Below, one piece after another: positions 1,713 to 33,740 of a DNA stretch of 33,740 nt. Position numbers and translations under genes: made by a program. Below the pieces are notes generated by a model, which worked only from the letters and a program-made list of their open reading frames with translations, made no database searches and had not been told where the DNA came from. Each line of letters opens with the position of its first letter. Position 1 is the stretch's first letter. Source of the DNA: Clostridia bacterium (GTDB taxonomy: Bacteria > Bacillota > Clostridia > Oscillospirales > CAG-272); the NCBI GenBank assembly GCA_017540285.1, contig JAFYBI010000032.1:1-33740 (forward strand), given 5' to 3'.

Positions 1713-2474
1713 TCATGACCAGAAATCCGTCATGCTTTCTCCCGTGACGGACGGGCACTTATCCAGTCCGATCTTCTGAAGAAAAGCGCGGATTTGTTCC
1801 GTTAGAGCGTCTTCGGGGATTGGTTCCGCGTTACCGGCGAACGGAGAGGATGAGGCGATCCAGTCCGTCAGGATCAGAAGCGCGGTCATCGTCGTACACG
1901 CGGCGTCCACATGTTTGAGCTGATCGAAACACATCACCGGAGGGGTAAAACGGTCGCGAATCCTTTTCTCGATCGTATCCTGAACCTGTACCCAGTCAGG
2001 ATAAGCGCTTGTCAGAGCAGGGACGACATATCCGCCTTTTTTCCCCTGATGATGGAGCTGCAGGATCTGGGAAAAGCAGATTCGCAGATCCGTATCGAAC
2101 AAACCTTCTCTTTTCCATATTCTTTTAACGATTTCCGCACTCCCTCTCTCATGACGGTACGTATTTTCTGGTATCCATACGGAGAGTTCGGGGTGTTTTT
2201 CCAAAAACACCTGTACAAAGCCGACGAGTTTATTGAAAGCAAAATACGGGAACGCCTTTCCTTCGTCATGCATCCCGGCAAGATACTGCGCCAGACGAAT
2301 CGTGTCCTCCTCCGACAAGCCCAGCCACTCCGCCAGATCCGGCAGCAGGTTTGAAAAAACGCTGTTTGTCAGCAAGATCTTGATGACGATCGCCGCCTCA
2401 TACAGGTGGCACTCCAGCGATTTCCGCGGCTCGCTCTTTGACCAGACAAAACGATCAAGTTCACTATTCACCAT
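1713..2474 (-). CDS. cas3: Cas3 HD-nuclease domain protein (Cas3''), separate ORF
   Basis: ORF 1713..2513. SLECHLYEAAIV, AGMHDEGK and LQLHHQGK fit the HD phosphohydrolase motifs of the Cas3 N-terminal domain. It ends at TGA (1715..1713), directly followed in the same frame by the helicase ATG. Start set at ATG 2474 (GGAGAG a few nt upstream). ATG 2486 and GTG 2513 are alternatives. All three overlap the 3' end of the WYL gene. Confidence 0.75.
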   Translation of the reverse strand: MVNSELDRFVWSKSEPRKSLECHLYEAAIVIKILLTNSVFSNLLPDLAEWLGLSEEDTIRLAQYLAGMHDEGKAFPYFAFNKLVGFVQVFLEKHPELSVWIPENTYRHERGSAEIVKRIWKREGLFDTDLRICFSQILQLHHQGKKGGYVVPALTSAYPDWVQVQDTIEKRIRDRFTPPVMCFDQLKHVDAACTTMTALLILTDWIASSSPFAGNAEPIPEDALTEQIRAFLQKIGLDKCPSVTGESMTDFWS

Positions 2475-3480
2475 CAGACTCTCCATCACACTTTGATTCC
2501 GTAATCTTTTCACAAGCAGCCCTCAGCATTTCGGAATAGGCTGTCTTACTCTGTTCCGGCGCCATGATCCGCACCCGTCCGCCAAACCCGAACACCCAGC
2601 TGTAAAACACATGGTTGACGGCGATCTCAACTTCGATGACGAACTCCGTTTCCCGGTTCTCCGTGACCTTCACGTCCGTCCCGAAGCGGTCGATCATGGC
2701 GTCCATGAGGTCGTTGTCGCAGGACAGCGTAACGGTCTCCCGTTCCGTGCTGTACATCCGGAACATCGTCCCGACATAATCGGAAGGGGAGAAGTCCTCC
2801 GGCGGCGGGACGGCATCCTCGTCCAGGATTTCCGGTGTCCGATATATTCGCTCAATCCGATAACTGCCCATCCCGCCGTGCGTGTCGCACCATCCGATCA
2901 TGTAGTAAAAGTCCCCATTCCAGACCAGGGAGCAGGGGCTGAACACATACGGCTCCCCGTCCCGTTTCAGCTGTTTGTTTTTGCAGGCGTCGTACTGATA
3001 GTACTGAAAGCGGATCTTCTTTTGGAGCCGGATCGCGCGGGACACGGTGTCGGCGATGTAGTATATCTGCTCGTTTTCCGGCTTCCGGTCCGGCGTCGTG
3101 ACGAAATGATGCCGAAGTTGGTCCGCGCCGCCGACGCTGGCGAGTGTCAGCAGCTTATCCGTCAGGGCCTTGCTCTTTTTCTCCGTCACAAAGCGGGAGG
3201 ATCCCACGGCGTCGATCAGAAGCTGCAGCTCGGGAAGCTCGAAGAGGCGGTGGGAGACATAGTACCGGTTCTGAGTCGAGCGCACCGTTTCAATACACAT
3301 CCCGACTTCTGTCAGAAAGCGGATGTCCTCATGGATCGTCCGCGCGTCGGAGGACAGACCGTATTTTTCATTGAGAATCCGGTTTATCTGTGCTGCCGAA
3401 AGCATGTGCGTTTCGTCCGTCTGTTCATACAGCAGCTCCGCGATGCGCCAGAGCCGTTGTTTTCCGGGATTTTTGACCAT
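2464..3480 (-). CDS. WYL-domain transcriptional regulator (N-terminal HTH, central WYL, C-terminal extension)
   Basis: 338-aa ORF. The N-terminus RLWRIAELLYEQTDETHMLSAAQINRILNEKYGLSSDARTIHEDIRFL is a DeoR/HTH_11-like wHTH. The centre IRFQYYQYD...PYVFSPCSLVWNGDFYYMIGWC...YRIERI is a typical WYL core. GGGAGGA RBS lies 5 nt before ATG 3480. Sits immediately upstream of cas3. Confidence 0.8.
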   Translation of the reverse strand: MVKNPGKQRLWRIAELLYEQTDETHMLSAAQINRILNEKYGLSSDARTIHEDIRFLTEVGMCIETVRSTQNRYYVSHRLFELPELQLLIDAVGSSRFVTEKKSKALTDKLLTLASVGGADQLRHHFVTTPDRKPENEQIYYIADTVSRAIRLQKKIRFQYYQYDACKNKQLKRDGEPYVFSPCSLVWNGDFYYMIGWCDTHGGMGSYRIERIYRTPEILDEDAVPPPEDFSPSDYVGTMFRMYSTERETVTLSCDNDLMDAMIDRFGTDVKVTENRETEFVIEVEIAVNHVFYSWVFGFGGRVRIMAPEQSKTAYSEMLRAACEKITESKCDGESDGE

Positions 3481-3535: not shown

Positions 3536-3686
3536 TCAAGATTATCGCTCCGAAGAGGAGGATGACATTTTTTTGTCGACCTCCCGGATCCGCAAAGAAA
3601 TATCAGAGAAAGTGTGCACGCCCAAACCATTTCCGTAAACTTTACCGAAAATTTACGCCTTCCGTGCTTTCTTTTCTGAAATCTTG

Positions 3687-3715
3687 TTGATTTTTCCCGC
3701 GCGATGCGCTACAAT
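3687..3715 (+). promoter_or_regulatory. Sigma-A type promoter for the 3744..5389 gene pair
   Basis: TTGATT (3687..3692), 17 nt, TACAAT (3710..3715), in an AT-richer intergenic patch. It lies downstream of the TTG at 3684, which argues for ATG 3744 as the real start. Confidence 0.5.
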
Positions 3716-3743
3716 ATCCTCGTATATCCCTGACTTTTCCCGA

Positions 3744-4670
3744 ATGAGGATGACCATGCGCCAGAAAATCCGCCGTATCCTTGCTTTCGTGATCGCCGCC
3801 GTCCTGATCCAGGGGCTCGCGCTCCTTTTCTTTACTCCCGCCGGGATCGAACGGCTCCTCTTTCTTCCCCTCCGCCTCCACGCGGAGAAATTCAAACCGG
3901 ACAACAACGCCTACGCCGTCTATTACGACACCCGCACGGACGTCGCCGCAGCCGATCTCATCGTCGTCGGCATCGACACGCACGTTGCGGAGTCCTACGA
4001 CGCCCTCGGGCATTTTTCCCGCTATGTCAAGCAGTACAACGACTTCTCCGCCGTGCTCATGCCCTTCACCCGCGCGCAGATCACCATCACGGGTTCGCTG
4101 ATGAAGCAGACCGACGAGGAGAAGTTCCGTAAGCGCATCCAGTCCCTGAACGAGAGCTACGGTCTCTCCGCCGACTGCTGCGACTATCTCTCCGAGCTCT
4201 TCTATGTCAACACCACCATGTCCGCGGCGAAGAAATTCAACGTCGTCTCCTTCTCGGACGATGCGGAAGGATCGGATACCTCCCGCCCCGCGCAGATCGC
4301 CGAGGCCTACCGCGAGACCGAACGGAGCGCGCTCTGCGTCGTCGATACCGCCTTCCTGAAAGAAGAGGCCGATGAGCTCGCCCGTCTTCTCCCGGACGCG
4401 ACGATTCTCACGATCGGGATGTACTACGACCGCGACACCGTCTCTCCGTGGACGCACGAGGCCGTCACCTTCCCGGATTTCTCCGCCGGGCCCGCCTGCT
4501 TCTTCGTGAAAAACAGCACACTCGGCCGGTATTACCGCTACTACCATTTCGTGACGGATCTCTTCGACGCCGAGCGCGAGGATCCCGTCGACGCCCGCTT
4601 CACCGATTACTTCTTCGTCATCGCGAACGGAACGCCCGCCACCCCCGGCGGAGAACTGGAGACCCCATGA
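3744..4670 (+). CDS. Hypothetical membrane-anchored protein (N-terminal signal-anchor helix, no family recognised)
   Basis: In-frame ATG at 3744 within ORF 3684..4670. The N-terminus MRMTMRQKIRRILAFVIAAVLIQGLALLFF is a basic stretch plus a hydrophobic helix. The stop overlaps the next start (ATGA at 4667..4670). Confidence 0.6.
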   Translation: MRMTMRQKIRRILAFVIAAVLIQGLALLFFTPAGIERLLFLPLRLHAEKFKPDNNAYAVYYDTRTDVAAADLIVVGIDTHVAESYDALGHFSRYVKQYNDFSAVLMPFTRAQITITGSLMKQTDEEKFRKRIQSLNESYGLSADCCDYLSELFYVNTTMSAAKKFNVVSFSDDAEGSDTSRPAQIAEAYRETERSALCVVDTAFLKEEADELARLLPDATILTIGMYYDRDTVSPWTHEAVTFPDFSAGPACFFVKNSTLGRYYRYYHFVTDLFDAEREDPVDARFTDYFFVIANGTPATPGGELETP

Positions 4671-15562: not shown

Positions 15563-16240
15563 ATGTCATCCTCACTCATCCACACCATCACCGAGCTCCT
15601 CTTCGTCATCCCCTGCGTGCTCGTCGCCCTGAGCGTTCACGAGGTGTCGCACGGGTGGATGGCATACCGGCTCGGCGACCCCACGGCGAAGAACCTCGGG
15701 CGGCTCTCGCTCAACCCCCTGAAGCACCTCGATCCCGTCGGCACGCTGTGCATGATCTTCTTCCACTTCGGATGGGCGCGCCCGGTGCCGATCAACACGC
15801 GGTATTTCAAGAACAACCGCCGCGACACCGCCCTGACCGCGCTCGCCGGACCGCTCTCGAACATCGCGCTCGCGTTCCTCGGGACGATCCTTTTTCACAT
15901 CATCTACGCCGTCGGGTCCCGCGCGACGATCCGTTCGGAGTTCTCCTACAACGTCTTCGTCGCCGCCCTCACCCTCTTCAGCTATTTCCGCTCTCTCAAC
16001 CTGGCCCTTGCCGTCTTCAACCTCATCCCCGTTCCCCCGCTCGACGGATCCCGGATCTTTCTCGTCTGGCTCCCGCCGAAGTACTATTTCGGCGTGATGA
16101 AGTACGAGCGGTACATCCAGCTCGGGCTGATGATCCTGCTCTGGACGGGCATCCTCTCCCCCCCGCTTTCTCCCGTGGTGAACGCGATCGGGAGCGGCAT
16201 GGACTGGCTCGTCGAGCTCATCCCCTTCTTCCGCCGATGA
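15563..16240 (+). CDS. Site-2 protease family (peptidase M50) membrane metalloprotease
   Basis: HEVSHGW (HExxH) and NLIPVPPLDGSR second motif. Polytopic hydrophobic protein. Confidence 0.8.
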   Translation: MSSSLIHTITELLFVIPCVLVALSVHEVSHGWMAYRLGDPTAKNLGRLSLNPLKHLDPVGTLCMIFFHFGWARPVPINTRYFKNNRRDTALTALAGPLSNIALAFLGTILFHIIYAVGSRATIRSEFSYNVFVAALTLFSYFRSLNLALAVFNLIPVPPLDGSRIFLVWLPPKYYFGVMKYERYIQLGLMILLWTGILSPPLSPVVNAIGSGMDWLVELIPFFRR

Positions 16241-25754: not shown

Positions 25755-27269
25755 TCAGCCGCCGTTCTCGTAGAATTCGTTGACCGTGTTGATCATGCGG
25801 CCCGCGATCGATTTGCGCTTCTGGACCAGGGCGGAGATGTTCGGGGACGCGCCCTGCACGATGTCCTTCATCGAATTCTTGAGCGCGCCGACCTGATAGA
25901 TCCAGCCGAGGTCATAGGCGCGGGTCGAGAAGATGATGTCGAGCATCTGCCCGGATTCCTCGTCGCGCGCCGCCTTGCGCTGCAGGGTGATCTCGTAGTA
26001 GGCGGGCATGACGTACCGCTCGGAGAGACAGGCCAGCGCGTCGAGCACGATGCCCGTGAATTCCGGGTCGGACATGACGATCGGGACGGAGAGGAGCACG
26101 CCGTCGTTCTCCGCGACGCAGCTGCGGTAGACGGGCTGTTCCTCGTTGAACTTGGGCATCGGGAGCACGCCGAAATCGGCCTCCATATCGCGGAAGGCGG
26201 TGATCCGGTTGATCTCCTGCATGTAGAACAGCGCGTGGTTCCCTGCGAATAGGTCGTAGGAGCTGTATCCCTTGAAGATGTAGTCCGCGGTGATCTCCGG
26301 ATCGGCGGCGAAGGAGATGAACTTGTCGACGATGTCCTGCACGCGCTCCGTGTCGAGCGTCAGGGCGAGCAGACCGTCCTCGCCGACCTGCGCGCAGTAT
26401 TCAAGCCCGGAGTTGACCGCTCCCGTGATCGAATCGACCCAGAGGCAGAGGCCGAAGAGATCCTTGTCGTCCATTTTGCCGTTGCCGTCGAGGTCGGTCG
26501 AGATCCCGGTCATCATGCCTTTGAGGGCGTCATAGGTCCACTTGCCGTCGAGAACGTCCTGATAGGGCGATTCGAGGTGATACTCCGCCGCTAGCTCCTT
26601 GTTGAAGAGGATCGCGAAGGTGGCGTTGTACGACGCGATGCAGACCGCGTTCACCGCGTGATAGAGCTGGCCGCGGATCGTCATGTCCTCGACCGAGCGC
26701 GCGTCCCACCACGGCTCGCCGAGCGAGACGCCGGGGAGGGTCGTGAGATCGGCGAAATAGCCCTCGAGGGTGATCTTCGCGGCGTCGGTGCAGCAGAGCT
26801 GGGTGGAATTGTAGATCTCGTCGTTCGCCTTGACGGCGGCCTTGAGCTCGCCCATGACGATGCCGCCGTTGCCGAACTGCTCGATCGAGGCGAGGGTGAC
26901 GTTCAGGGTGTCCTCGACCTCGATGTTGCGGTTGAAGCGGCTCGAGTTGATGATCTCGGGATTCTCGGCGTCGGCGTCGATGTTGTTCTGCCGCCACTCG
27001 CCGTTGTCCATGCCGCTGACGAGGACGGTGTAGGTCCGGCCCTCGAAATCATGCGCGCCGAGGTATTCGAGGGGTCTTGCGGGTTCGGTCTCGGGTGTCC
27101 CGGCCTGGTCGCTGCCGGCATCCGCCGCGTCGGGTTCCGTGACGGCGGGGGTATTCCCGGGATCGGCGGCGTTCTTTTCCCCGTTCTTCGCGCAGGACGC
27201 GGAGAGGAGGACAAGAACCGCCGCGAGGAGGAGGCTGAGGGCTCGCGCCGCTCCGTTCGGGTGCTTCAT
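25755..27269 (-). CDS. ABC-transporter extracellular solute-binding lipoprotein (large family-1 SBP, probably glycan-binding)
   Basis: Start at ATG 27269 (AAGGAG RBS). Lipoprotein signal MKHPNGAARALSLLLAAVLVLLSASC followed by a low-complexity linker. About 500 aa, SBP-like. No permease or ATPase genes adjacent. Confidence 0.65.
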   Translation of the reverse strand: MKHPNGAARALSLLLAAVLVLLSASCAKNGEKNAADPGNTPAVTEPDAADAGSDQAGTPETEPARPLEYLGAHDFEGRTYTVLVSGMDNGEWRQNNIDADAENPEIINSSRFNRNIEVEDTLNVTLASIEQFGNGGIVMGELKAAVKANDEIYNSTQLCCTDAAKITLEGYFADLTTLPGVSLGEPWWDARSVEDMTIRGQLYHAVNAVCIASYNATFAILFNKELAAEYHLESPYQDVLDGKWTYDALKGMMTGISTDLDGNGKMDDKDLFGLCLWVDSITGAVNSGLEYCAQVGEDGLLALTLDTERVQDIVDKFISFAADPEITADYIFKGYSSYDLFAGNHALFYMQEINRITAFRDMEADFGVLPMPKFNEEQPVYRSCVAENDGVLLSVPIVMSDPEFTGIVLDALACLSERYVMPAYYEITLQRKAARDEESGQMLDIIFSTRAYDLGWIYQVGALKNSMKDIVQGASPNISALVQKRKSIAGRMINTVNEFYENGG

Positions 27270-27436
27270 CGGGAGATCTCCTTCGGGTTCCGATCGGATT
27301 TTTGTGAGTTTTCCGCACATTCCGAATTATTATAGCACACGGCGGGCGATCCGTCAAGAGAGGATATGGACGGCGGGAAAACGCGGATGGCAGGGGGAGG
27401 CGCGCATGAAAACTGACGCATTTCCCGCATTCGCTC

Positions 27437-27465
27437 TTGACAGGATTTCCCGAATGAGATATAAT
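27437..27465 (+). promoter_or_regulatory. Perfect consensus sigma-A promoter of the MtmB-like/permease unit
   Basis: TTGACA (27437..27442), exactly 17 nt, TATAAT (27460..27465). About 48 nt upstream of the GTG start. Confidence 0.65.
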
Positions 27466-27513
27466 GGTGTCGAAAACAACGGATATATCCCATCTGCCAC
27501 AGGAGGACGGAAC

Positions 27514-28872
27514 GTGCATTTTCTGGAAATTGTCAACCGGGGCTATACCGGCGAAGCGGTGTCCAAGGATGACTGGGACATGGACCACGTGGTCATGCCG
27601 ATCATGGATATCGTCGAAGAATTCGAACTCGAGAGAGAGGACGGCGCGCTCCTGCTTCATGACCGCGAAGAGGCGAAGCGCTTCTTTGACGCGGGCGTCG
27701 AGCTGCTCGTCCGGTCCGGCGTCTACAACCAGTCCACCGGCCGCGTCATGATGTTCACGCGCGAGGAGATCCTCGAAGCCGCCGCGAACATGCCGAAGTC
27801 CGTGACCGTCGGACAGGGGAAGGACGCCTACACGTTCGTCCCCCGCCACCCCGACGACACCCGGCTTCCCGGCGTCGTGGCGGGCAATCCTGGCTGTCCC
27901 ATGTCGGAGGAGCTCTTCTGCAAGACCGTGACCTCGTGGGCGAAGGAACCCGTCGTCGATATGGTCACCTGCGGCTCCATCGTCGAGGTGGACGGCTTCG
28001 ACGTCGTCCGCGCGTCTCCCTCCGAGGTGATCGCCCTGCGGCGCGAGCTCCGTTATCTGAACGAGATCTGCGAAAAGGTCGGGCGTCCCGGCATCGGCAG
28101 GCTCGCGGCGGAAAGCTCCGTCTCCGAGATCGGCGATCTCGCGGCGATGGCTCCCGGCGGATTCCATCCGGGCGACGCGCACCTCATCGCGCTCAACAAC
28201 GAGCTCATCATGACGAACGACAACCTCATCCGCGTCGCCAACGCCATGGAGACGCCCGTCCTCAACGCCTCCCTCGCGTGCGTCATGGTCGGCGGTCTGG
28301 CCGGAGGTGCGGCGGGCGCGGCGGTCTGCATGATCGCTTCCCTGCTCGCGGACTCCCTCGTCGGCCGGGCGGACTACCATCTCTGTCATCCGATCCACAT
28401 CAAACACATCGCCACCTCGACGCCCGAATGCATGTGGCTCTCGAGCGTGGTCTGTCAGGCGTTCGACGCGGGGCTGCCCGCCGTGATCATCTGCGACATC
28501 TACCCGAAGAGCGGCGCGGGCACGAAGGAGCTTCTCGAAGAGGTCGCCGCGAACGCGCTCGCCATCACCGTCTCCGGCGGCAACCTCGAAGGCGTCGGCT
28601 CCTGCGACGGGCTCAAGCCCAACTGCTCCGGCCTGGAAGCGCGCCTCATGGGCGAGGTCGGAAAGGCCGCCGCGGCGCAGGGCATGACCCGGGAAGAAGC
28701 CGAGCCCATCATCGCCGCGCTCGTCGCAAAGTACGGGCACATCTTCGAGACCGGCAACGAGGGCCTCTCCTTCGACGAGGTCTACGGCGAGGACGGCGAA
28801 CCGCGCGACTTCTGGCTGGCCATGTACCGGGAGGTCCGCGAAGAGCTGATCTCGCTCGGCGTAAAGCTGTGA
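27514..28872 (+). CDS. Monomethylamine methyltransferase (MtmB) family protein, non-pyrrolysine form
   Basis: Start at GTG 27514 (AGGAGGA 6 nt upstream, downstream of the promoter). 452 aa. GEAVSKDDWDM, FFDAGVELLVRSGVYN, VGQGKDAY, GRPGIG, LNNEL and GLEARLMGEVGKA parallel Methanosarcina MtmB blocks as I recall them (GEKCTQDDWDL, LFKAGFEMLLECGIYC, GRPGMGV-Pyl-GPETS, GMEARMMGEVARA). The ORF has no internal TAG. Confidence 0.7.
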   Translation: MHFLEIVNRGYTGEAVSKDDWDMDHVVMPIMDIVEEFELEREDGALLLHDREEAKRFFDAGVELLVRSGVYNQSTGRVMMFTREEILEAAANMPKSVTVGQGKDAYTFVPRHPDDTRLPGVVAGNPGCPMSEELFCKTVTSWAKEPVVDMVTCGSIVEVDGFDVVRASPSEVIALRRELRYLNEICEKVGRPGIGRLAAESSVSEIGDLAAMAPGGFHPGDAHLIALNNELIMTNDNLIRVANAMETPVLNASLACVMVGGLAGGAAGAAVCMIASLLADSLVGRADYHLCHPIHIKHIATSTPECMWLSSVVCQAFDAGLPAVIICDIYPKSGAGTKELLEEVAANALAITVSGGNLEGVGSCDGLKPNCSGLEARLMGEVGKAAAAQGMTREEAEPIIAALVAKYGHIFETGNEGLSFDEVYGEDGEPRDFWLAMYREVREELISLGVKL

Positions 28873-28923: not shown

Positions 28924-30510
28924 TTGGAAGCAAAAAAGAAAAGCCTGATCCCCTTCTTCACGAAGGGTGACGTCGGCGGGTTGACGTATATGATCACCAA
29001 CAATATCGTCAACTACATCATCATCATCGCAACCCTCGAGGGCTTCGGATGGCCGTCCGAGATCATCTTCGGACGCGTGATCCCCGGCCTGTCCATCGGT
29101 CTGATGTGCGGCGGCCTCTACTATGCCTGGATGGCCCGGAAGCTGTCCGCCAAGCTCGAGCGTCCCGACGTGACCGCGCTGCCCTCCGGCATCTCGACGC
29201 CCGCGATGTTCGTCATCCTGTTCGGCGTCATCAGCCCGATCCACTACGCGATCGGCGATCCCGAAACCGAATGGGGCGCGGCGATGGCTGCCTGCTTCAT
29301 CGGCGGCTTCGTCGAATTCCTCGGCGGCTTTATCGGCCCGTGGGTCAAGAAGCATCTGCCCCGCGCGGCGCTTCTCGGCACCGTGGCCGGCATCGGCTTC
29401 ATCTGGATGGCGACGCAGGGCGTGTTCGACGTCTTCGGCGATCCCGTCGTCGGCCTCCCGATCCTCGCGGTCGCCATGCTCGGCCTCTTCGCCGGTTATC
29501 TCTTCCCGAAAAAGATCTCTCCCTTCATGGTGGCGATCGTCGGCGGCATCGTGTATGCGATCTGCCTCGGCCGCACCACCTTTGACTTCACGCAGGTGGG
29601 CTTCTATTTCCCGAACCCCGTGAACACCATCCAGTCCCTCGTCAACGGCTTCGCGTACGTCGCTCCCTACCTGACCGTGGTCATCCCGGTGGAGATCTAC
29701 AACTTCATCGAGACCATGGACAACGTGGAGTCCGCGAACGCGGCGGGCGATCCCTACAACGTCCGGGAAGCTCAGTTCGCCGACGGCTGCTGCACGATGA
29801 TCTCCTCCCTCTTCGGCGGCGTGGTCCCGAACACCGTCTGGCTCGGCCATCCCGGCCTGAAGAAGACGAACGCCGGCGCGGCTTACAGCTGGATCAGCGG
29901 CGTGGTCCTCGGCCTGGCGGGCATCTTCGGCCTCTTCACGGTGCTTGACGACCTCGTTCCTCCGGCAGTCGTCGCCATCACCTTCCTGTGGTGCGCGGTC
30001 ATCATGGTGGCGCAGGCCTTCAAGGAATGCAAGCCGAAGCACTACGCGGCCATCGCCATCGCCATGGTTCCCTCCATCGCCGACTATCTCTTCACGCAGG
30101 TGGAAGCGGCTCTCGCGACCGGTTCCATGGCGGAAGGCGGCTGGGGCATCTGGTCCGAGGCGCTCGATTCCGGCATCAAGGGCTTCCAGCCTGAGATCTC
30201 CGAAATGCTCATCGCCAACGGCGCGATGTGGAACGGCGTTCCCGCGGTCAAGGCCGGCGCGATCATCATCGGCATCCTGCTCGGCTCCATGTGCGTCTTC
30301 ATGATCGAGCGCAAGCTGAGAAGCGCGTCCCTCATCGCCCTGGCCGGCGCGGTGCTCTCCTTCTTCGGATTCATCCACCACGCGGCCCTCGGCATCTACC
30401 TGACCTCTCCCTTCATGATCGGCTGGCTCATCGTCGCGGTGATCCTCTTCATCCTGAGCTTCGGAGAAGGCAAGTGGTTCAAGGCCCAGGACGACTTCGA
30501 ATACGTATAA
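28924..30510 (+). CDS. Polytopic permease, probably NCS2/AzgA-like (xanthine/uracil permease superfamily)
   Basis: 528 aa, about 12-14 hydrophobic segments. TTG start at 28924 (GGGGGA 8 nt upstream), kept because the conserved-looking N-terminus FFTKGDVGGLTYMITNNIV would be lost with the next ATG. PVEIYNFIETMDNVESANAAGD resembles the AzgA-type mid-protein motif. Family assignment is tentative. Confidence 0.55.
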   Translation: MEAKKKSLIPFFTKGDVGGLTYMITNNIVNYIIIIATLEGFGWPSEIIFGRVIPGLSIGLMCGGLYYAWMARKLSAKLERPDVTALPSGISTPAMFVILFGVISPIHYAIGDPETEWGAAMAACFIGGFVEFLGGFIGPWVKKHLPRAALLGTVAGIGFIWMATQGVFDVFGDPVVGLPILAVAMLGLFAGYLFPKKISPFMVAIVGGIVYAICLGRTTFDFTQVGFYFPNPVNTIQSLVNGFAYVAPYLTVVIPVEIYNFIETMDNVESANAAGDPYNVREAQFADGCCTMISSLFGGVVPNTVWLGHPGLKKTNAGAAYSWISGVVLGLAGIFGLFTVLDDLVPPAVVAITFLWCAVIMVAQAFKECKPKHYAAIAIAMVPSIADYLFTQVEAALATGSMAEGGWGIWSEALDSGIKGFQPEISEMLIANGAMWNGVPAVKAGAIIIGILLGSMCVFMIERKLRSASLIALAGAVLSFFGFIHHAALGIYLTSPFMIGWLIVAVILFILSFGEGKWFKAQDDFEYV

Positions 30511-31622: not shown

Positions 31623-31638
31623 TATACCCGCAACACGC

Positions 31639-31672
31639 AAAAATCCGCCTCCCGGAAGAGACGGATTTTTTG
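31639..31672. terminator. Bidirectional rho-independent terminator between convergent GNAT and serpin genes
   Basis: AAAAATCCGcCTC..loop..GAGaCGGATTTTTT. A stem flanked by an A-run and a T-run. Confidence 0.7.
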
Positions 31673-31690: not shown

Positions 31691-33040
31691 TCATTCCGCC
31701 GGCATGTTGACGATCCCGACGAAGACCGGGAGACCGCCCTCGGTCACGGCGAAGAGGAACGGGCGGTCGAAGGTGAGCGTGATCGGTTCGGGCTCCCAAT
31801 CTCCCGCGCCGTCCATTTCGAGGAACACATACGACGCCGCCGTGCATCCCTCCTCGTCGATCGCCACCCGCGCGGCATGCTCCGCCCTGGTGAGGTAAAC
31901 CGTCGTCGCCTCCGTCAGCGGAGAGAAATCCGCCGCCGCTTCGTCAAGCACATCGGTCACGCCGAGGGTCTGCAAGCCGTCCATGAGGTCGGTATCCGAG
32001 GAGACGTCGAACTTCGGCAGGGCCAGCTCGATCCTGGCTTCGATCTGTCCGTCAAAGCTCATCCAGTCCGCGATGAGCGCGAGGAATTCCGGATCCCCGG
32101 CAAGCTCTTCCGGCGTCACGCCCTCGTCCGGGAGGAGGAAGAACATCTGCGCATTCATCGTGAAGGAACGGGCAAACGCCGTGAACCGTTCGCCGCGGAA
32201 CGCGACCGAGGTGAAGGTGTCATGCATGAAATCGGCTGTCACGTCCCCGTCCTGTGCGTGAAAGACGCCCGGCGCGGTGTTTTCTTTTTGGAATTCATCC
32301 GTCCAGCGGCCACGGAAATACACGGTCGAGGCGAGGGTCATCACCCCGCGCGGATCGAAAGCATGACCTGCGATGTGCTCCGCGAGGAGGTTCTCCGTCT
32401 GCCGGTTGATCCAGTCGGCAAAGGCCCGGTCGTATTTTTCGTCCCCCATGCGCCCGCTGTAAGTCGAGGCGAAGTAATCGGCCGCGAGGCGTTCGGGGAC
32501 GTCCCGCTTCAGATCGGCCGCGTCGTTCATCCAGAGGGAGTTCGCGAGCAGGCATTTCCCTCTGTCCGAATCCCGGAAGGCCTTCTTCCAGACCATTGTG
32601 ACCGCCGTCCGCTGCGCTTCGAGGTTCCCCTCTCCGAGGAGGCTGAGGATCTGTTCCCTGCTCTCCCCGTCGGTGCACTCGGCGAGCATCCCGAGCGCGA
32701 CGTAGAGGTTGACGGGCGAATACACGCGGTTCTTCCCCGCTTCGCCGCCGAGGAATACGGGAATGCTCTTTTCGAGGAATCCGAAAAGCCCCGCGGGCGT
32801 CTCCGTCACTCTTTCGACAGACGCCGGATAGACCGCTTCGGCGACGGCATAGGCGGGCGTCGCGCTCTTCGCGAAGGCCCAGACGACCGCCGTCACCCCG
32901 ATGAGGACCGCCGCCGCGGACGCTGCGTACCGTTTCCAGCTTGCTTTTCGTTTCCGTGCGGGCTCTTCCCCCGCGCCGATGGCAAGATCCTCGCCGATCT
33001 CGCCGATGGCCCGATACAGTTTTTCGCTCTTTTCGCTCAT
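31691..33040 (-). CDS. Single-pass membrane protein with extracytoplasmic full-length serpin domain, putative anti-sigma factor
   Basis: 449 aa. Short charged N-terminus, then TM helix YAASAAAVLIGVTAVVWAFA. Serpin blocks follow: SPVNLYVALGMLAECTDGESREQILSLL, LANSLWMN, WINRQTENLL, LASTVYFRGRWTDEF, MFFLLPDEG, LALPKFDV, HAARVAIDEEGCTAAS (hinge), FDRPFLFAV. The start ATG overlaps the sigma stop (ATGA). AAGGAGGGG RBS. Confidence 0.85.
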   Translation of the reverse strand: MSEKSEKLYRAIGEIGEDLAIGAGEEPARKRKASWKRYAASAAAVLIGVTAVVWAFAKSATPAYAVAEAVYPASVERVTETPAGLFGFLEKSIPVFLGGEAGKNRVYSPVNLYVALGMLAECTDGESREQILSLLGEGNLEAQRTAVTMVWKKAFRDSDRGKCLLANSLWMNDAADLKRDVPERLAADYFASTYSGRMGDEKYDRAFADWINRQTENLLAEHIAGHAFDPRGVMTLASTVYFRGRWTDEFQKENTAPGVFHAQDGDVTADFMHDTFTSVAFRGERFTAFARSFTMNAQMFFLLPDEGVTPEELAGDPEFLALIADWMSFDGQIEARIELALPKFDVSSDTDLMDGLQTLGVTDVLDEAAADFSPLTEATTVYLTRAEHAARVAIDEEGCTAASYVFLEMDGAGDWEPEPITLTFDRPFLFAVTEGGLPVFVGIVNMPAE

Positions 33041-33597
33041 AATCCGATCCCCTCCTTTTCGAGTGCCGCCTTCAGCTTCTTTCTGAGGCGGAACATCCGC
33101 TGCGCCAGCCGTGCCGCATCCTCGCCGGATGCCTCGGCCAGCCGGTTCAGCGCGTCGCCGTACCAGTACCGCCGCAGAAACAGTCTCCGGTCCTCTTCGT
33201 CAAGCGACCGCAGCCACCGGTCCACGGCGAGGCCGATCTCTTTCGCCTCCGCCGCATTCTCCGGTCCCGCCGACGGGTCCGGGACGCATTCGTCCAGCTC
33301 GCTGAGCAGCACGTCGAGACGCCCGTCCCGCTTCTGCGCGCGGTTTCGGCGAAAGCGGTCGACGGCGATGTTGCGCACAACCCGTCCGAGCCATGCGCGG
33401 AGATTCTCCGGCTTTTGTTCGGGCATCGACGTCCAAGCCTCGTAGTACGTGTCGTTCACGCACTCCTCCGCGTCCTCCCGGGTGTCCGAGAGATTCCGCG
33501 CGAGCGAGAGGCAGAACGCGCCGTACTTGCGCTCGGTCTCGGGGATCGCGTCCTCGCTCCGCTGCCAGTACAATCCGACGATCTGATTGTCGTCCAT
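33037..33597 (-). CDS. ECF-type (sigma-70 family, regions 2 and 4) RNA polymerase sigma factor
   Basis: Start at ATG 33597 (AAGGAG 6 nt upstream). DAEECVNDTYYEAW (region 2.1-2.2), WLGRVVRNIAVDRFRR (2.3-2.4), LSLDEEDRRLFLRRYWYGDALNRLAEASGEDAARLAQRMFRLRKKL (region 4 HTH). Confidence 0.85.
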   Translation of the reverse strand: MDDNQIVGLYWQRSEDAIPETERKYGAFCLSLARNLSDTREDAEECVNDTYYEAWTSMPEQKPENLRAWLGRVVRNIAVDRFRRNRAQKRDGRLDVLLSELDECVPDPSAGPENAAEAKEIGLAVDRWLRSLDEEDRRLFLRRYWYGDALNRLAEASGEDAARLAQRMFRLRKKLKAALEKEGIGL

Positions 33598-33740
33598 ATC
33601 CAACTCCTTTCTCCGGATCGCTCCGGTGGTCTTCATGGAATACAGTCGGATTTTTGCGCACGATATTGGCGTCATGAGCGAAATTTCGGGTCAGGATTCT
33701 GTTTTTTCGAGGATCCGGATCCTCCGGCCCTCCTCGCGGA

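What the first reader, a model, noticed from the sequence alone, without database searches (positions are those of the whole stretch)
31691..33597. ECF sigma factor translationally coupled to a membrane-anchored serpin: candidate protease-sensing anti-sigma factor
**Seen in the sequence**
- The sigma gene stop and the downstream start overlap (ATGA at 33037..33040), so the two are co-translated.
- The downstream protein has an anti-sigma-like layout. A charged N-terminal segment of about 37 aa (..LYRAIGEIGEDLAIGAGE..) resembles the IGEIDD-type N-termini I recognise in Clostridial proteins encoded directly after ECF-like sigma genes.
- That segment is followed by one TM helix.
- The entire outside portion is a complete serpin with all recognisable blocks, including the hinge and FDRPFLF.

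**Established knowledge**
- ECF sigma factors are normally paired with single-pass anti-sigma factors whose external domain senses the signal.
- Inhibitory serpins undergo a large irreversible conformational change when a target protease cleaves the reactive-centre loop.

**Inference**
- The serpin could be the sensor module. Attack by an extracellular protease (host, competitor or self) would then be converted into sigma release.
- A more modest alternative is that the sigma factor simply controls a surface-tethered protease inhibitor.
- I am not aware of a described serpin-domain anti-sigma factor.
Basis: partly seen in the sequence, partly recalled or inferred. Interest (0 to 1): 0.8.

Follow-up and report, generated by a model that had tools for sequence, protein, structure and literature searches.

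The report
Serpin built into an anti-sigma factor
A gut Clostridia bacterium encodes a sigma factor translationally coupled to a membrane protein whose outer part is a complete protease-trapping serpin and whose short inner tail always travels with that sigma factor, which suggests an undescribed way for bacteria to sense and answer attacking proteases.

Summary
On the minus strand, an ECF-type sigma gene (33037-33597) overlaps by 4 nt (ATGA) a 449-aa protein (31691-33040). That protein has a 37-aa charged N-terminus, one TM helix and a full serpin with an inhibitory-type hinge.

The arrangement is a large family in gut Oscillospiraceae and Lachnospiraceae, not a one-off. In 80 genome loci, all 49 serpins carrying the N-terminal module had the sigma gene adjacent, and 41 of 48 showed the same 4-nt overlap. 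Twenty-nine serpins without the module, many with lipoprotein signal peptides, had no sigma. The same module precedes unrelated outer domains after sister sigmas that are 56-61% identical. A conserved ECF-like promoter lies upstream of the sigma genes, including this one.

These results make the N-terminal tail a strong candidate sigma-binding (anti-sigma) module, with the serpin outside the cell. Binding itself could not be tested. It also remains inferred that protease attack on the serpin is the releasing signal. RsiV/lysozyme and the tengpin N-terminal clamp give mechanistic precedents. I found no paper linking serpins to anti-sigma factors.

Verdict: a new variant of a known kind, with high interest.

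The parts
33629..33669 (-). ECF-type promoter-like site upstream of the sigma gene. The -35-like CCAATAT is at 33663-33669 and the -10-like TCCGAC at 33645-33650. The site starts 67 nt before the ATG.
   Evidence: A Gibbs motif was built from 52 upstream regions of sigma genes: tTGTcAcAT-N~12-tttTGCGACTtTAnAGgTGAAAGG. The best hit of that matrix on either strand of the whole window falls here, at 13.3 bits against 10.8 for the next best. The window site is a weak copy.
33604..33610 (-). Ribosome-binding site (AAAGGAG) of the sigma gene
   Evidence: Read directly from the sequence.
33037..33597 (-). ECF-type sigma factor gene, 186 aa
   Evidence: Sigma70_r2 2.8e-10 and TIGR02937 1.7e-21. The closest solved structures are M. 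tuberculosis SigH/SigE and CnrH. 3649 homologues were found.
33037..33040 (-). ATGA overlap of the sigma stop codon and the serpin start codon (translational coupling)
   Evidence: Seen in the sequence. The same 4-nt overlap occurs in 41 of 48 related loci.
33051..33057 (-). Ribosome-binding site (AAGGAGG) of the serpin gene, inside the end of the sigma gene
   Evidence: Read directly from the sequence.
31691..33040 (-). Gene for the 449-aa membrane-anchored serpin, the candidate anti-sigma factor
32930..33040 (-). Cytoplasmic N-terminal module, aa 1-37: motif SEKLYRAIGEIGEDLAIGA followed by the basic run RKRKASWKR. Candidate sigma-binding segment.
   Evidence: The motif is conserved across homologues. 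A profile of the module finds 3069 representative proteins, always at residues 1-55. It co-occurs strictly with the sigma gene. AlphaFold2 leaves it disordered when modelled alone.
32873..32929 (-). Single transmembrane helix, aa 38-56
   Evidence: The AlphaFold2 model has a helix at 35-57. Six Lys/Arg residues lie before it and an acidic stretch follows, which gives an N-in, C-out orientation.
32756..32872 (-). Juxtamembrane extension, aa 57-95. It contains the conserved AYAVAEAVYP with three overlapping A-x-A motifs (A63-A65, A65-A67, A67-A69).
   Evidence: Y71 and P72 are invariant, and A65 and A69 nearly so. An A-x-A motif lies between the TM helix and YP in 98 of 110 homologues. pLDDT is about 77 and a short strand forms at 65-67.
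31700..32740 (-). Serpin domain, aa 101-447
   Evidence: Pfam PF00079 at 1.4e-52. The AlphaFold2 body has pLDDT about 90. The top Foldseek match is tengpin, with TM-score about 0.8.
31784..31855 (-). Hinge and reactive-centre loop, aa 396-419: E396 (P17), G398 (P15), C399 (P14), A401-A402-S403 (P12-P10), predicted P1 Ala412 and P1' Gly413.
   Evidence: Numbering follows the alignment to the conserpin/alpha-1-antitrypsin loop. The hinge E-E-G-(C/V)-T-A-A-A-(Y/F)-T is conserved in 115 homologues. pLDDT is low at 405-417.
31636..31669 (-). Intrinsic-terminator-like hairpin with a U-tract, 22 nt after the serpin stop codon. It marks the end of the two-gene operon.
   Evidence: RNA fold energy is -18.6 kcal/mol (centroid) to -23.8 kcal/mol (minimum), with z = -4.0 against shuffles. 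The simple terminator scan did not list it.

Best explanation
This is a two-gene ECF sigma/anti-sigma operon in which the anti-sigma factor's extracytoplasmic domain is an inhibitory serpin.

**Proposed working**
1. The sigma factor and the serpin protein are made in about 1:1 amounts, because their genes are translationally coupled.
2. The 37-aa cytoplasmic N-terminal module holds the sigma factor at the membrane.
3. The serpin is displayed on the outer face of the membrane. There it acts as a suicide inhibitor of extracellular serine proteases. The predicted P1 residue is Ala, which points to elastase-like, chymotrypsin-like or subtilisin-like targets from the host or from competitors.
4. 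When a protease cleaves the reactive loop, the loop inserts into the serpin body. This irreversible stressed-to-relaxed change, or the removal of the spent molecule, exposes the juxtamembrane segment (AYAVAEAVYP, with A-x-A motifs).
5. A site-1 protease cuts there, followed by intramembrane cleavage. This is the route known for RsiV and lysozyme.
6. The freed sigma factor transcribes its own operon from the conserved ECF-type promoter, and in some genomes further serpin genes. Consumed inhibitor is thus replaced in proportion to the protease attack.

**Status of each step**
- Shown: the operon structure, the membrane topology, the serpin identity with an inhibitory-type hinge, the strict module-sigma linkage, the portability of the module, and the conserved promoter.
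- Inferred: module-sigma binding, the protease trigger, and the proteolytic release pathway.
For: **Operon**
- The two genes overlap by 4 nt, each has a ribosome-binding site, and a terminator hairpin follows the serpin gene.

**Linkage of the module to the sigma gene**
- Among 80 genome loci from many genera, 49 of 49 module-bearing serpins have the sigma gene adjacent.
- Three more have divergent modules plus the sigma.
- None of the 29 module-less serpins has a sigma. Many of these carry lipoprotein signal peptides.

**Portability of the module**
- Sister sigmas 56-61% identical to this one are closer to it than the median serpin-linked sigma (47%).
- These sister sigmas are followed, with the same overlap, by proteins that carry the same N-terminal module and TM helix but unrelated outer domains with no Pfam match.
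- A profile of the module finds 3069 cluster representatives, always at residues 1-55. Of the 59 long top hits, 45 are serpins and 14 are not.

**A second, independent fusion**
- Serpins with a different N-terminus follow a different ECF sigma in L061 and L070. That N-terminus gives weak RsiV and 'anti-sigma' hints.

**Promoters**
- A conserved bipartite promoter lies 45-90 nt upstream of most sigma genes, including those of non-serpin pairs. The best hit in the window is at the expected place.
- A stand-alone serpin in L015 carries the same promoter.
- Eight of 17 stand-alone serpins carry a canonical GGAAC-N16-CGTCT ECF promoter, against a background of 0.017 per 700 nt.

**Serpin competence**
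- Pfam Serpin scores 1.4e-52, the predicted fold matches tengpin, and the hinge is inhibitory-type in 115 homologues.

**Precedents**
- RsiV binds lysozyme and is then cut by signal peptidase at an A-x-A junction and by RasP. LbpA is an RsiV orthologue without the sigma-binding part (PMC9044953).
- The juxtamembrane N-terminal extension of tengpin clamps the native state and is coupled to loop insertion (PMC1905895).
- Serpin expression in B. breve is induced by proteases (PMC8012564).
Against: - No direct test of module-sigma binding was possible.
- The module is only about 37 aa long. It has no zinc motif and no match to any Pfam or NCBIfam anti-sigma model. The only hits are sub-threshold hints, with E from 6e-5 to 0.01 and scores far below the curated cut-offs.
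- The conserved AYAIAEAxYP segment is also kept in lipoprotein serpins. Its conservation may therefore be structural rather than reflect a cleavage site.
- Relaxed serpins are hyperstable, and serpin-protease complexes are bulky. How such a complex would become a substrate for a site-2 protease is unclear.
- The window's promoter copy is weak, at 13.3 bits.
- No protease, site-1 protease or RasP-type gene is linked to the operon. The only M50 peptidase in the window is a small one 17 kb away.
Confidence: 0.5

Rival explanations
1. The protein is an anti-sigma factor, but the serpin is only cargo and not the sensor. The N-terminal module sequesters the sigma. The operon answers some other cue, such as general envelope stress, growth phase or turnover of the membrane protein. 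The serpin merely serves as a surface-tethered inhibitor. Fusing it to the anti-sigma module gives stoichiometric negative feedback on its own synthesis.
For: - The same sigma/module pair carries several unrelated outer domains, so the module works independently of the serpin.
- Stand-alone serpins sit behind a canonical envelope-stress-like ECF promoter, GGAAC-N16-CGTCT.
- No mechanism for release of the sigma has been shown.
Against: - In characterised single-pass anti-sigma factors such as RsiV and RsgI, the outer domain is the input (PMC9044953, PMC6056542).
- Serpins were joined independently to two different sigma/N-terminus types. This is easier to explain if the serpin state is informative.
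- Tandem operons exist in which a module-bearing serpin is followed by a module-less one (L037, L070). This looks like a sensor plus effector arrangement.
Confidence: 0.25
2. The system senses proteases by 'shaving', without using the serpin mechanism. Extracellular proteases cut the exposed juxtamembrane linker directly. The stump then goes to a site-2 protease. The serpin only protects the neighbourhood against the proteases it can inhibit.
For: - Many family members have long, low-complexity linkers between the TM helix and the serpin. Examples are about 150 aa rich in Thr, Ser and Glu in L084, and a Pro/Ala/Gly-rich linker in L070.
- From general knowledge rather than a tool result, truncation of the ectodomain is the usual requirement for cleavage by a site-2 protease.
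Against: - The window protein has a short linker that AlphaFold2 packs onto the serpin body, with pLDDT about 77.
- The strict conservation of an inhibitory hinge would be unnecessary for a simple bait.
Confidence: 0.15
3. The N-terminal segment is not an anti-sigma domain. It is a signal anchor or an extended signal peptide with a conserved cytoplasmic motif that serves targeting or secretion. The sigma factor is simply a dedicated activator that is co-transcribed with its target gene.
For: - There is no significant match to any curated anti-sigma model.
- A-x-A motifs after the hydrophobic stretch resemble a signal-peptidase site.
- AlphaFold2 gives no structure for residues 1-35.
Against: - The motif is found only where the sigma gene is adjacent: 49 loci with the sigma against none without.
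- Paralogous serpins are exported perfectly well with ordinary lipoprotein signal peptides and then have no sigma.
- The motif accompanies the sigma onto unrelated outer domains.
- A 4-nt overlap giving 1:1 synthesis is the classic sigma/anti-sigma layout.
Confidence: 0.1

Closest known systems
SigmaV/RsiV of Bacillus subtilis, Enterococcus faecalis and Clostridioides difficile
   Same: - Both are ECF sigma factors paired with a single-pass anti-sigma factor that has a short cytoplasmic N-terminus.
- In RsiV the outer domain directly binds a host attack enzyme (lysozyme). Site-1 cleavage is by signal peptidase at an A-x-A or V-x-A site at the junction of the TM helix and the ectodomain, followed by RasP.
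- A paralogue without the sigma-binding part (LbpA) acts as a membrane-bound binder (PMC9044953). The lipoprotein serpins here stand in the same relation to the module-bearing serpins.
   Different: - The outer domain here is a serpin, not the RsiV fold.
- The sigma factor and the N-terminal motif belong to a different clade.
- The ligand would be a protease that becomes covalently trapped, so the receptor is consumed irreversibly.
- Nothing has been tested experimentally.
SigmaI/RsgI pairs of cellulolytic clostridia
   Same: In both cases Clostridia use multiple paralogous sigma/anti-sigma pairs that share a cytoplasmic module. The extracellular modules vary and define the signal. The operons are autoregulated (PMC6056542).
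   Different: - SigmaI is not a canonical ECF sigma, and the RsgI N-terminal domain is a defined Pfam family.
- The RsgI sensor modules bind carbohydrates, whereas here the outer domain is a protease inhibitor.
Protease-inducible serpin of Bifidobacterium breve, controlled by an adjacent two-component system
   Same: Both involve a serpin of a gut commensal that is thought to protect against host proteases. In B. breve, transcription is induced by proteases through a dedicated regulator encoded next to the gene. The B. longum serpin is predicted to be anchored by an N-terminal TM domain and is cell-associated (PMC8012564).
   Different: In B. breve the sensor is a separate histidine kinase and response regulator. 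Here sensor and effector would be a single polypeptide coupled to a sigma factor.
Tengpin (Thermoanaerobacter tengcongensis) and the siropins (Eubacterium siraeum)
   Same: - Tengpin is the top Foldseek structural match and the closest natural serpin by sequence; engineered conserpin scores higher by sequence.
- Tengpin has a 56-aa N-terminal region that clamps the metastable native state, and it inhibits leukocyte elastase (PMC1905895).
- The siropins are gut Clostridia serpins that inhibit neutrophil elastase and proteinase 3 (PMC5127057).
   Different: No link to a sigma factor has been reported for these proteins. Their N-terminal regions were removed or left uncharacterised. Whether their genes sit next to a sigma gene was not checked here.
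CnrH/CnrY, a sigma factor with a short ('class II') anti-sigma domain
   Same: In both cases a very short cytoplasmic peptide on a single-pass membrane protein is enough to hold an ECF sigma. CnrH is among the closest solved relatives of this sigma factor (E = 4e-7). The description of CnrY as a short anti-sigma domain rests on memory.
   Different: No sequence similarity between the module and CnrY was shown. CnrY works together with a separate periplasmic metal sensor, CnrX.

Membership tests
Serpin superfamily (PF00079), inhibitory type | Significant match to the serpin profile over the whole domain | tested here: met
   PF00079 scores 1.4e-52 and 179.6 bits over residues 101-447, covering profile positions 19-370 of 370.
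Serpin superfamily (PF00079), inhibitory type | Serpin fold | tested here: met
   The AlphaFold2 model has pLDDT about 90 over the serpin body. Foldseek against the PDB gives tengpin, alpha-1-antitrypsin and PAI-1 at E about 1e-29, with target-normalised TM-scores of 0.80-0.87.
Serpin superfamily (PF00079), inhibitory type | Hinge compatible with loop insertion: P15 Gly, P14 small or uncharged, P12-P9 short side chains, no Pro or charged residue | tested here: inconclusive
   The hinge reads E396-E-G398-C-T-A-A-S-Y. P15 is Gly in 115 of 115 homologues and P12-P10 are Ala/Ala/Ala(Ser). P14 is Cys or Val, and P9 is Tyr or Phe, which is bulkier than usual. The hinge is mostly canonical.
Serpin superfamily (PF00079), inhibitory type | Forms an SDS-stable covalent complex with a target protease | not testable with these tools
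   This needs recombinant ectodomain and protease assays.
ECF (group 4) sigma-70 factors | Small sigma with only sigma-2 and sigma-4 regions, scoring above the family threshold | tested here: met
   TIGR02937 scores 76.5 bits against a cut-off of 42.9, over residues 24-179. Sigma70_r2 scores 2.8e-10. Many homologues also hit Sigma70_r4_2.
ECF (group 4) sigma-70 factors | Autoregulated from a conserved non-sigma-70 promoter upstream of its own gene | tested here: inconclusive
   A conserved bipartite motif lies upstream of most of the 52 sigma genes. The best hit in the window is at the expected place but reaches only 13.3 bits. Recognition of the motif by this sigma factor has not been shown.
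Membrane anti-sigma factors of ECF sigmas | Encoded next to the sigma gene and co-transcribed with it; single-pass, with the N-terminus in the cytoplasm | tested here: met
   The genes overlap by 4 nt here and in 41 of 48 related loci. All 49 module-bearing serpins have the sigma gene adjacent. The positive-inside rule and the lipoprotein paralogues place the serpin outside the cell.
Membrane anti-sigma factors of ECF sigmas | Recognisable anti-sigma domain (class I four-helix or zinc-binding HxxxCxxC; Pfam zf-HC2, RskA and similar) | tested here: not met
   Residues 1-80 give no Pfam hit even at E <= 10. NCBIfam gives only sub-threshold hints: CU044_5270_fam at E = 0.007, 16 bits against a cut-off of 100. 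The module has no Cys/His motif and is only about 37 aa long.
Membrane anti-sigma factors of ECF sigmas | Physically binds and inhibits its cognate sigma factor | not testable with these tools
RsiV-type activation (ligand-gated signal-peptidase site-1 cleavage followed by RasP) | A-x-A signal-peptidase motif at the junction of the TM helix and the ectodomain | tested here: inconclusive
   The motifs A63-Y-A65, A65-V-A67 and A67-E-A69 lie 7-13 residues after the TM helix. An A-x-A motif is present in 98 of 110 homologues. A similar segment is conserved in lipoprotein serpins, so a structural role is equally possible.
RsiV-type activation (ligand-gated signal-peptidase site-1 cleavage followed by RasP) | Ectodomain homologous to RsiV | tested here: not met
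   The ectodomain is a serpin. Only the alternative N-terminus of the L070 serpin gives a faint RsiV hint, at E = 0.011.
Tengpin-like prokaryotic serpins with an N-terminal clamp | An extension N-terminal to helix A that packs on the serpin body and stabilises the native state | tested here: inconclusive
   A conserved 35-40 aa extension lies between the TM helix and helix A. In the model it has pLDDT about 77 and a short strand at 65-67. It shows no sequence similarity to the tengpin peptide, and its function cannot be tested here.

The most novel reading that the evidence does not exclude
The serpin acts as a single-use receptor for active proteases. Cleavage of the reactive loop and its insertion into the serpin body displace a tengpin-like N-terminal clamp next to the membrane. 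This unmasks an A-x-A site for signal peptidase and triggers intramembrane proteolysis, which releases the sigma factor. The cell would thereby count catalytically active proteases one by one and replace each consumed inhibitor molecule. This signalling principle, a mechanism-based suicide substrate used as a transmembrane sensor, has not been described for any sigma/anti-sigma system.
Probability: 0.3. Interest if true: 0.9.

Novelty: new variant of a known kind. Interest (0 to 1): 0.78.

Why it matters
- **How gut commensals perceive proteases.** Pancreatic and neutrophil serine proteases are a major stress for gut bacteria, and bacterial serpins are being explored as anti-inflammatory agents. 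How gut Clostridia perceive these proteases is unknown. If this reading is right, thousands of Oscillospiraceae and Lachnospiraceae genes encode a built-in 'protease attack leads to more inhibitor' circuit.
- **A new kind of input for anti-sigma factors.** The input domain would be a metastable, irreversibly switching protein. The system also offers a genetically simple way, with two genes and one promoter, to test whether a serpin's conformational change can be transmitted across a membrane.
- **An uncharacterised module.** The work defines a large N-terminal module of about 3000 cluster representatives, with a matching sigma clade and promoter, that current domain databases do not cover.
- **Possible applications.** A protease-responsive gene switch could be useful for engineered probiotics.

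Tried and rejected
- **Search for known domains.** Pfam and NCBIfam found no curated model for the N-terminal module. They also found none for the non-serpin outer domains. The repeated weak hits to NF038083 (CU044_5270 family), and to the RsiV and 'antisigma' models for the L061/L070 type, fall far below the cut-offs and were kept only as leads.
- **Non-serpin partners in the 80 serpin loci.** None was found there. The one candidate, in L033, turned out to be a second, truncated serpin. Non-serpin partners were found only by starting from the sigma factor and from the module profile.
- **Promoter discovery.**
  - A strict regular expression matched only 10 of 52 upstream regions.
  - The first Gibbs sampler timed out.
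  - The vectorised version worked.
  - Enriched TGAAAGG k-mers close to the start codons are partly ribosome-binding sites.
- **Promoter and terminator scans.**
  - The simple terminator scan did not list the hairpin after the serpin gene, so I folded it directly.
  - The sigma-70 promoter scan found nothing upstream of the sigma gene. This is consistent with an alternative-sigma promoter but is not evidence for one.
- **Long-signal-peptide reading.** I considered that the TM helix plus AYA is just a long signal peptide. I rejected this as the sole explanation because the cytoplasmic motif tracks the sigma gene.
- **Longer sigma ORF.** I rejected the longer sigma ORF starting at 33675, because homologues start at the MDD position and the promoter motif would lie inside the longer ORF.
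- **Literature.** Searches for serpin together with anti-sigma, sigma factor or extracytoplasmic function found no relevant paper. Neither the gut serpinome review nor the ECF re-classification paper makes the link. No supplementary files were held for the ECF paper.


Full report
**1. What is in the window**

The last 2.1 kb of the window carries a compact two-gene unit on the minus strand.

- **Sigma gene.**
  - The first gene (33037-33597, 186 aa) matches Sigma70_r2 (2.8e-10) and the ECF superfamily model TIGR02937 (76.5 bits, cut-off 42.9).
  - Its closest solved relatives are M. tuberculosis SigH/SigE and CnrH.
  - A longer ORF begins at 33675, but 51 homologues begin at the equivalent of MDDNQIV, with the pattern M(E/D)D..I(I/V)xLY.
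  - An AAAGGAG ribosome-binding site precedes 33597.
- **Overlap.** The sigma stop codon overlaps the next start codon (ATGA, 33037-33040), and an AAGGAGG lies at 33051-33057.
- **Serpin gene.** The second gene (31691-33040, 449 aa) matches Pfam Serpin over residues 101-447 (1.4e-52).
- **Terminator.** A hairpin with a U-tract follows 22 nt after the stop codon (-18.6 to -23.8 kcal/mol, z = -4.0) and closes the unit.
- **Neighbours.** The adjacent genes are convergent GNAT acetyltransferases and ordinary chromosomal genes such as Lon, EngB, LysA, ScpB, a D,D-carboxypeptidase and a fucosidase. This is chromosomal, not mobile, DNA of a bacterium with 63% G+C.

**2. Anatomy of the serpin protein**

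- **Cytoplasmic tail.** Residues 1-37 are charged and end in RKRKASWKR.
- **TM helix.** Residues 38-56 are hydrophobic, and the AlphaFold2 model built with 33 homologues has a helix at 35-57. The six basic residues before the helix and the acidic stretch after it give an N-in, C-out orientation.
- **Extension.** Residues 57-95 form a conserved extension (AYAVAEAVYP...) with pLDDT about 77.
- **Serpin body.** The body has pLDDT about 90, and residues 405-417 have low confidence, as expected for an exposed reactive loop. Foldseek against the PDB returns serpins only, led by tengpin, with target-normalised TM-scores of 0.80-0.87.
- **Reactive loop.**
  - By alignment to a conserpin that carries the alpha-1-antitrypsin loop, the hinge is E396 (P17), G398 (P15) and C399 (P14).
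  - The scissile bond falls at Ala412-Gly413 (FLEMDGA|G).
  - In 115 homologues the hinge reads E-E-G-(C/V)-T-A-A-A-(Y/F)-T. P15 Gly and the Ala-rich P12-P10 positions are essentially invariant.
  - The P4-P3' stretch is rich in Gly, Ala and Met and is variable. This is the signature of an inhibitory serpin with a small P1 residue.
- **Location.** Close paralogues carry classical lipoprotein signal peptides (...LTAC...LAAC) in place of the N-terminal segment. The serpin domain of this family therefore works outside the cytoplasm.

**3. The pairing is a family trait**

- **Family size.** The serpin protein has more than 2790 homologues. Most of the best 120 cover the whole query and share an N-terminal motif with consensus xEKLYDGITDIRDDLIxxA. 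A basic run and a TM helix follow the motif.
- **Genome survey.** A scan of one genome per species returned 80 loci. They come from Oscillospiraceae, Lachnospiraceae and unclassified Clostridia, mostly of animal and human gut origin.
- **Contingency.** I searched six-frame ORFs with the window sigma, a sigma-family HMM and a motif HMM:

| Serpin type | Sigma adjacent | No sigma | Contig edge |
|---|---|---|---|
| Module present | 49 | 0 | 0 |
| No module detected | 7 | 29 | 2 |

- **The seven 'no module, sigma adjacent' cases** are accounted for:
  - Three have divergent modules (L010, L051, L064).
  - Two are serpins that merely precede the next sigma-serpin pair (L014, L033).
  - Two carry a different N-terminus (L061, L070).
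- **Apparent exceptions.** L046 has a sigma fragment at the contig edge. In L071 the gene order is reversed, with the sigma gene after the serpin gene.
- **Overlap.** In 41 of 48 pairs the genes overlap by 4 nt, as here.

**4. The N-terminal module belongs to the sigma, not to the serpin**

- **Sister sigmas.**
  - I looked up the context of six sigma homologues that are 56-62% identical to the window sigma.
  - Three are followed by serpins (L084, L089, L090).
  - Three are followed, with the same 4-nt overlap, by non-serpin proteins of 411, 524 and 467 aa (L081, L087, L088).
  - These begin MKLFRSITDISDDIIESAQ, SEALFRAITDLPDERVEEA and SEQLYRGITRIDDDLLEEA, followed by a TM helix. The two scanned (L081, L088), and P0288 and other hits that share the L087-type 'FMSYAGPVFPLT' domain, match no Pfam family.
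- **Ectodomain exchange.** Those three sigmas (56-61% identical) are closer to the window sigma than the median serpin-linked sigma (47%, range 36-60%). Outer domains have therefore been exchanged within one sigma/module lineage.
- **Module profile.** A 54-position profile of the module was searched against 1.84 billion cluster representatives.
  - It found 3069 proteins at E <= 0.001, always matching residues 1-55.
  - Of the 59 top hits of at least 250 aa, 45 are serpins and 14 are not. The non-serpins include a recurrent 'FMSYAGPVFPLT' outer domain.
- **What this means.** A short cytoplasmic module on a single-pass protein, always encoded right after one sigma clade and carrying interchangeable outer domains, is the genomic signature of an anti-sigma factor. 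Pfam (2025 copy) and NCBIfam (2026) have no model for it, and only sub-threshold hints appear.
- **Second fusion type.** In L061 and L070 a clearly different ECF sigma, with strong Sigma70_r2 and r4_2 hits, is followed by serpins that begin (M)KRYQKANEGIxAPxELKxR plus a TM helix. Of the two N-termini, only L070's gives a faint RsiV hit (E = 0.011); both give faint 'anti-sigma factor' hits (E = 0.002-0.005), all far below threshold.

**5. Promoters**

- **Family promoter.**
  - Gibbs sampling on 52 upstream regions of sigma genes found a bipartite motif: tTGTcAcAT, about 12 nt, tttTGCGACT, then tTAnAGgTGAAAGG.
  - It usually lies 45-90 nt before the start codon.
  - It is also present before the non-serpin pairs L081 (22 bits) and L088 (26 bits).
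  - In the 33.7-kb window the best hit on either strand is at 33629-33664, where it is expected. It is a weak copy, at 13.3 bits against 10.8 for the next best.
  - A CGAC/CGTC-type -10 element upstream of an ECF gene fits the classical autoregulated ECF promoter. Recognition by this sigma factor is inferred.
- **Stand-alone serpins.**
  - One stand-alone TM-anchored serpin (L015) has the family promoter at 25.7 bits.
  - Eight of 17 stand-alone serpins with enough upstream sequence carry a canonical G(G/A)AAC-N16-CGTCT promoter at a fixed distance. The background is 0.017 per 700 nt.
  - Serpin genes in these Clostridia thus appear to be under ECF-type control in general.

**6. Mechanism**

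- **Supported steps.** The sigma factor and the serpin protein are made together. The serpin faces outward. The N-terminal module is the sigma's partner. The operon probably drives itself.
- **Trigger (inferred).** The most economical reading is that the outer domain provides the input, as in other single-pass anti-sigma factors.
- **Precedent 1: RsiV.** RsiV binds the host enzyme lysozyme. It is then cut by signal peptidase at an A-x-A or V-x-A site at the junction of the TM helix and the ectodomain, and afterwards by RasP. LbpA, an RsiV orthologue without the sigma-binding part, is a membrane-bound lysozyme binder (PMC9044953). The family here shows the same pattern: module-bearing serpins alongside lipoprotein serpins, and A-x-A motifs 7-13 residues after the TM helix in 98 of 110 homologues.
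- **Precedent 2: tengpin.** This is the closest natural serpin by sequence and the top structural match.
  - Residues 37-56 of its N-terminal region pack across helices D and E and against helix F, and they trap the native state.
  - Removing them sends the serpin into the loop-inserted latent form. Strands s1A-s3A and helices E and F move during that transition (PMC1905895).
  - Loop insertion and the state of a juxtamembrane N-terminal extension can therefore be thermodynamically coupled in this kind of serpin.
- **Proposal.** Protease attack leads to loop insertion. This loosens the juxtamembrane segment, which is cut at site 1 and then site 2. The released sigma factor drives new synthesis of sigma and serpin. 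Because serpins are consumed stoichiometrically, the loop would replace the inhibitor in proportion to attack.
- **Biological plausibility.** Protease-inducible serpin expression is known in B. breve, where a separate two-component system does the sensing (PMC8012564).
- **Weak points.**
  - The AYAIAEAxYP segment is also conserved in lipoprotein serpins, so it may be purely structural.
  - Relaxed serpins are very stable, so removal of the ectodomain needs explaining.
  - No protease or RasP-type gene is linked to the operon.

**7. Comparison with what is known, and novelty**

- The parts are known kinds: an ECF sigma, a single-pass anti-sigma layout and a bacterial inhibitory serpin. Their combination is what is new.
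- Full-text searches for serpin together with anti-sigma, sigma factor or extracytoplasmic function found nothing relevant.
- The gut serpinome review does not mention sigma factors or transmembrane anchoring. The ECF re-classification paper does not mention serpins.
- I therefore file this as a new variant of a known kind: an ECF sigma/anti-sigma system with an unprecedented outer domain and an N-terminal module absent from the Pfam and NCBIfam copies searched.
- It fails one defining test for classical anti-sigma factors, since it has no recognisable class I or zinc anti-sigma domain. The claim is thus 'works like an anti-sigma factor', not membership of an existing anti-sigma family.

**8. 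Verdict**

The anti-sigma architecture is strongly supported by comparative genomics, with a probability of about 0.75-0.8 (my own estimate). Protease sensing through the serpin mechanism is plausible but untested, at about 0.3-0.5.
- Interest is 0.78.

Noticed in passing
L005, L009, L017, L054, L056, L059, L063, L072 (about 390-470 nt upstream of the serpin core): Stand-alone serpin genes (most with clear lipoprotein signal peptides) that have no adjacent sigma gene carry a canonical ECF-type promoter, G(G/A)AAC-N16-CGTCT, at a fixed distance. This holds for 8 of 17 genes, against a background of 0.017 per 700 nt. A different, distal ECF sigma factor probably drives them.
   Followed up: partly
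L061:5044-7152 and L070:4944-8614: These loci hold a second, independent kind of sigma-serpin pair. A canonical ECF sigma, with strong r2 and r4_2 hits, is followed by a serpin whose N-terminus is (M)KRYQKANEGIxAPxELKxR plus a TM helix. That N-terminus gives faint hints to the RsiV and 'anti-sigma factor' models. In L070 a third gene encodes a further TM-anchored serpin.
   Followed up: partly
Upstream of the sigma genes in most loci, e.g. L035, L057, L014 and L002 (about 10-30 nt after the -10 element): The sequence just downstream of the -10-like element, TATAGGTGAAAGGGCC, is strongly conserved. It is often continued as a palindrome, TTGAAAGGCCTTTTCAA. It could be a leader RNA hairpin or an operator. 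The window copy lacks it.
   Followed up: no
L087:3555-5129; also P0288, P0342, P0345, P0348-P0350, P0363, P0371, P0375: A recurrent outer domain with no Pfam match, marked by 'FMSYAGPVFPLT', is attached to the same N-terminal module and sigma clade. It is an uncharacterised family of candidate anti-sigma sensors.
   Followed up: partly
L084:4055-5920 (also L085 and L086): This 621-aa family member has a low-complexity spacer of about 150 aa, rich in Thr, Ser and Glu, between the TM helix and the serpin. The spacer may carry the serpin through the cell wall.
   Followed up: no
L071:5895-7909: The gene order is reversed here. The module-bearing serpin comes first and the sigma gene follows immediately.
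   Followed up: partly
L014, L029, L033, L037, L038, L058, L067: These loci contain tandem serpin genes. In several, a module-bearing serpin behind the sigma gene sits next to a module-less copy, which looks like a sensor plus effector arrangement. L038 has two complete sigma-serpin pairs in a row.
   Followed up: partly
window 15563-16240 (+): A small M50 (site-2 protease family) peptidase of 225 aa, with no PDZ domain detected, lies between lysA-like and scpB genes, 17 kb from the operon. It is probably a housekeeping gene. No link to the sigma-serpin pair was shown.
   Followed up: no
window 27139-28872 (+) and 28924-30510 (+): An MtmB-family methyltransferase homologue (6e-86) has no in-frame stop codon across the matched region. 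It is followed by a 528-aa polytopic membrane protein with no Pfam hit, possibly a substrate transporter. The annotated ORF start overlaps the upstream minus-strand ORF and is probably too long.
   Followed up: no
window 31691-33040 (-), model mde4f23acc314, residues 398-405: AlphaFold2 drew the proximal hinge as a beta-strand, and the best Foldseek matches include latent and cleaved serpins. The model therefore leans towards a partly loop-inserted state. This is a known tendency of such predictions and is not evidence about the native state.
   Followed up: no
window 2464-3480 (-): This ORF encodes a regulator with WYL and WCX domains. The neighbouring ORF at 3684-4670 (+) has no Pfam hit.
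   Followed up: no
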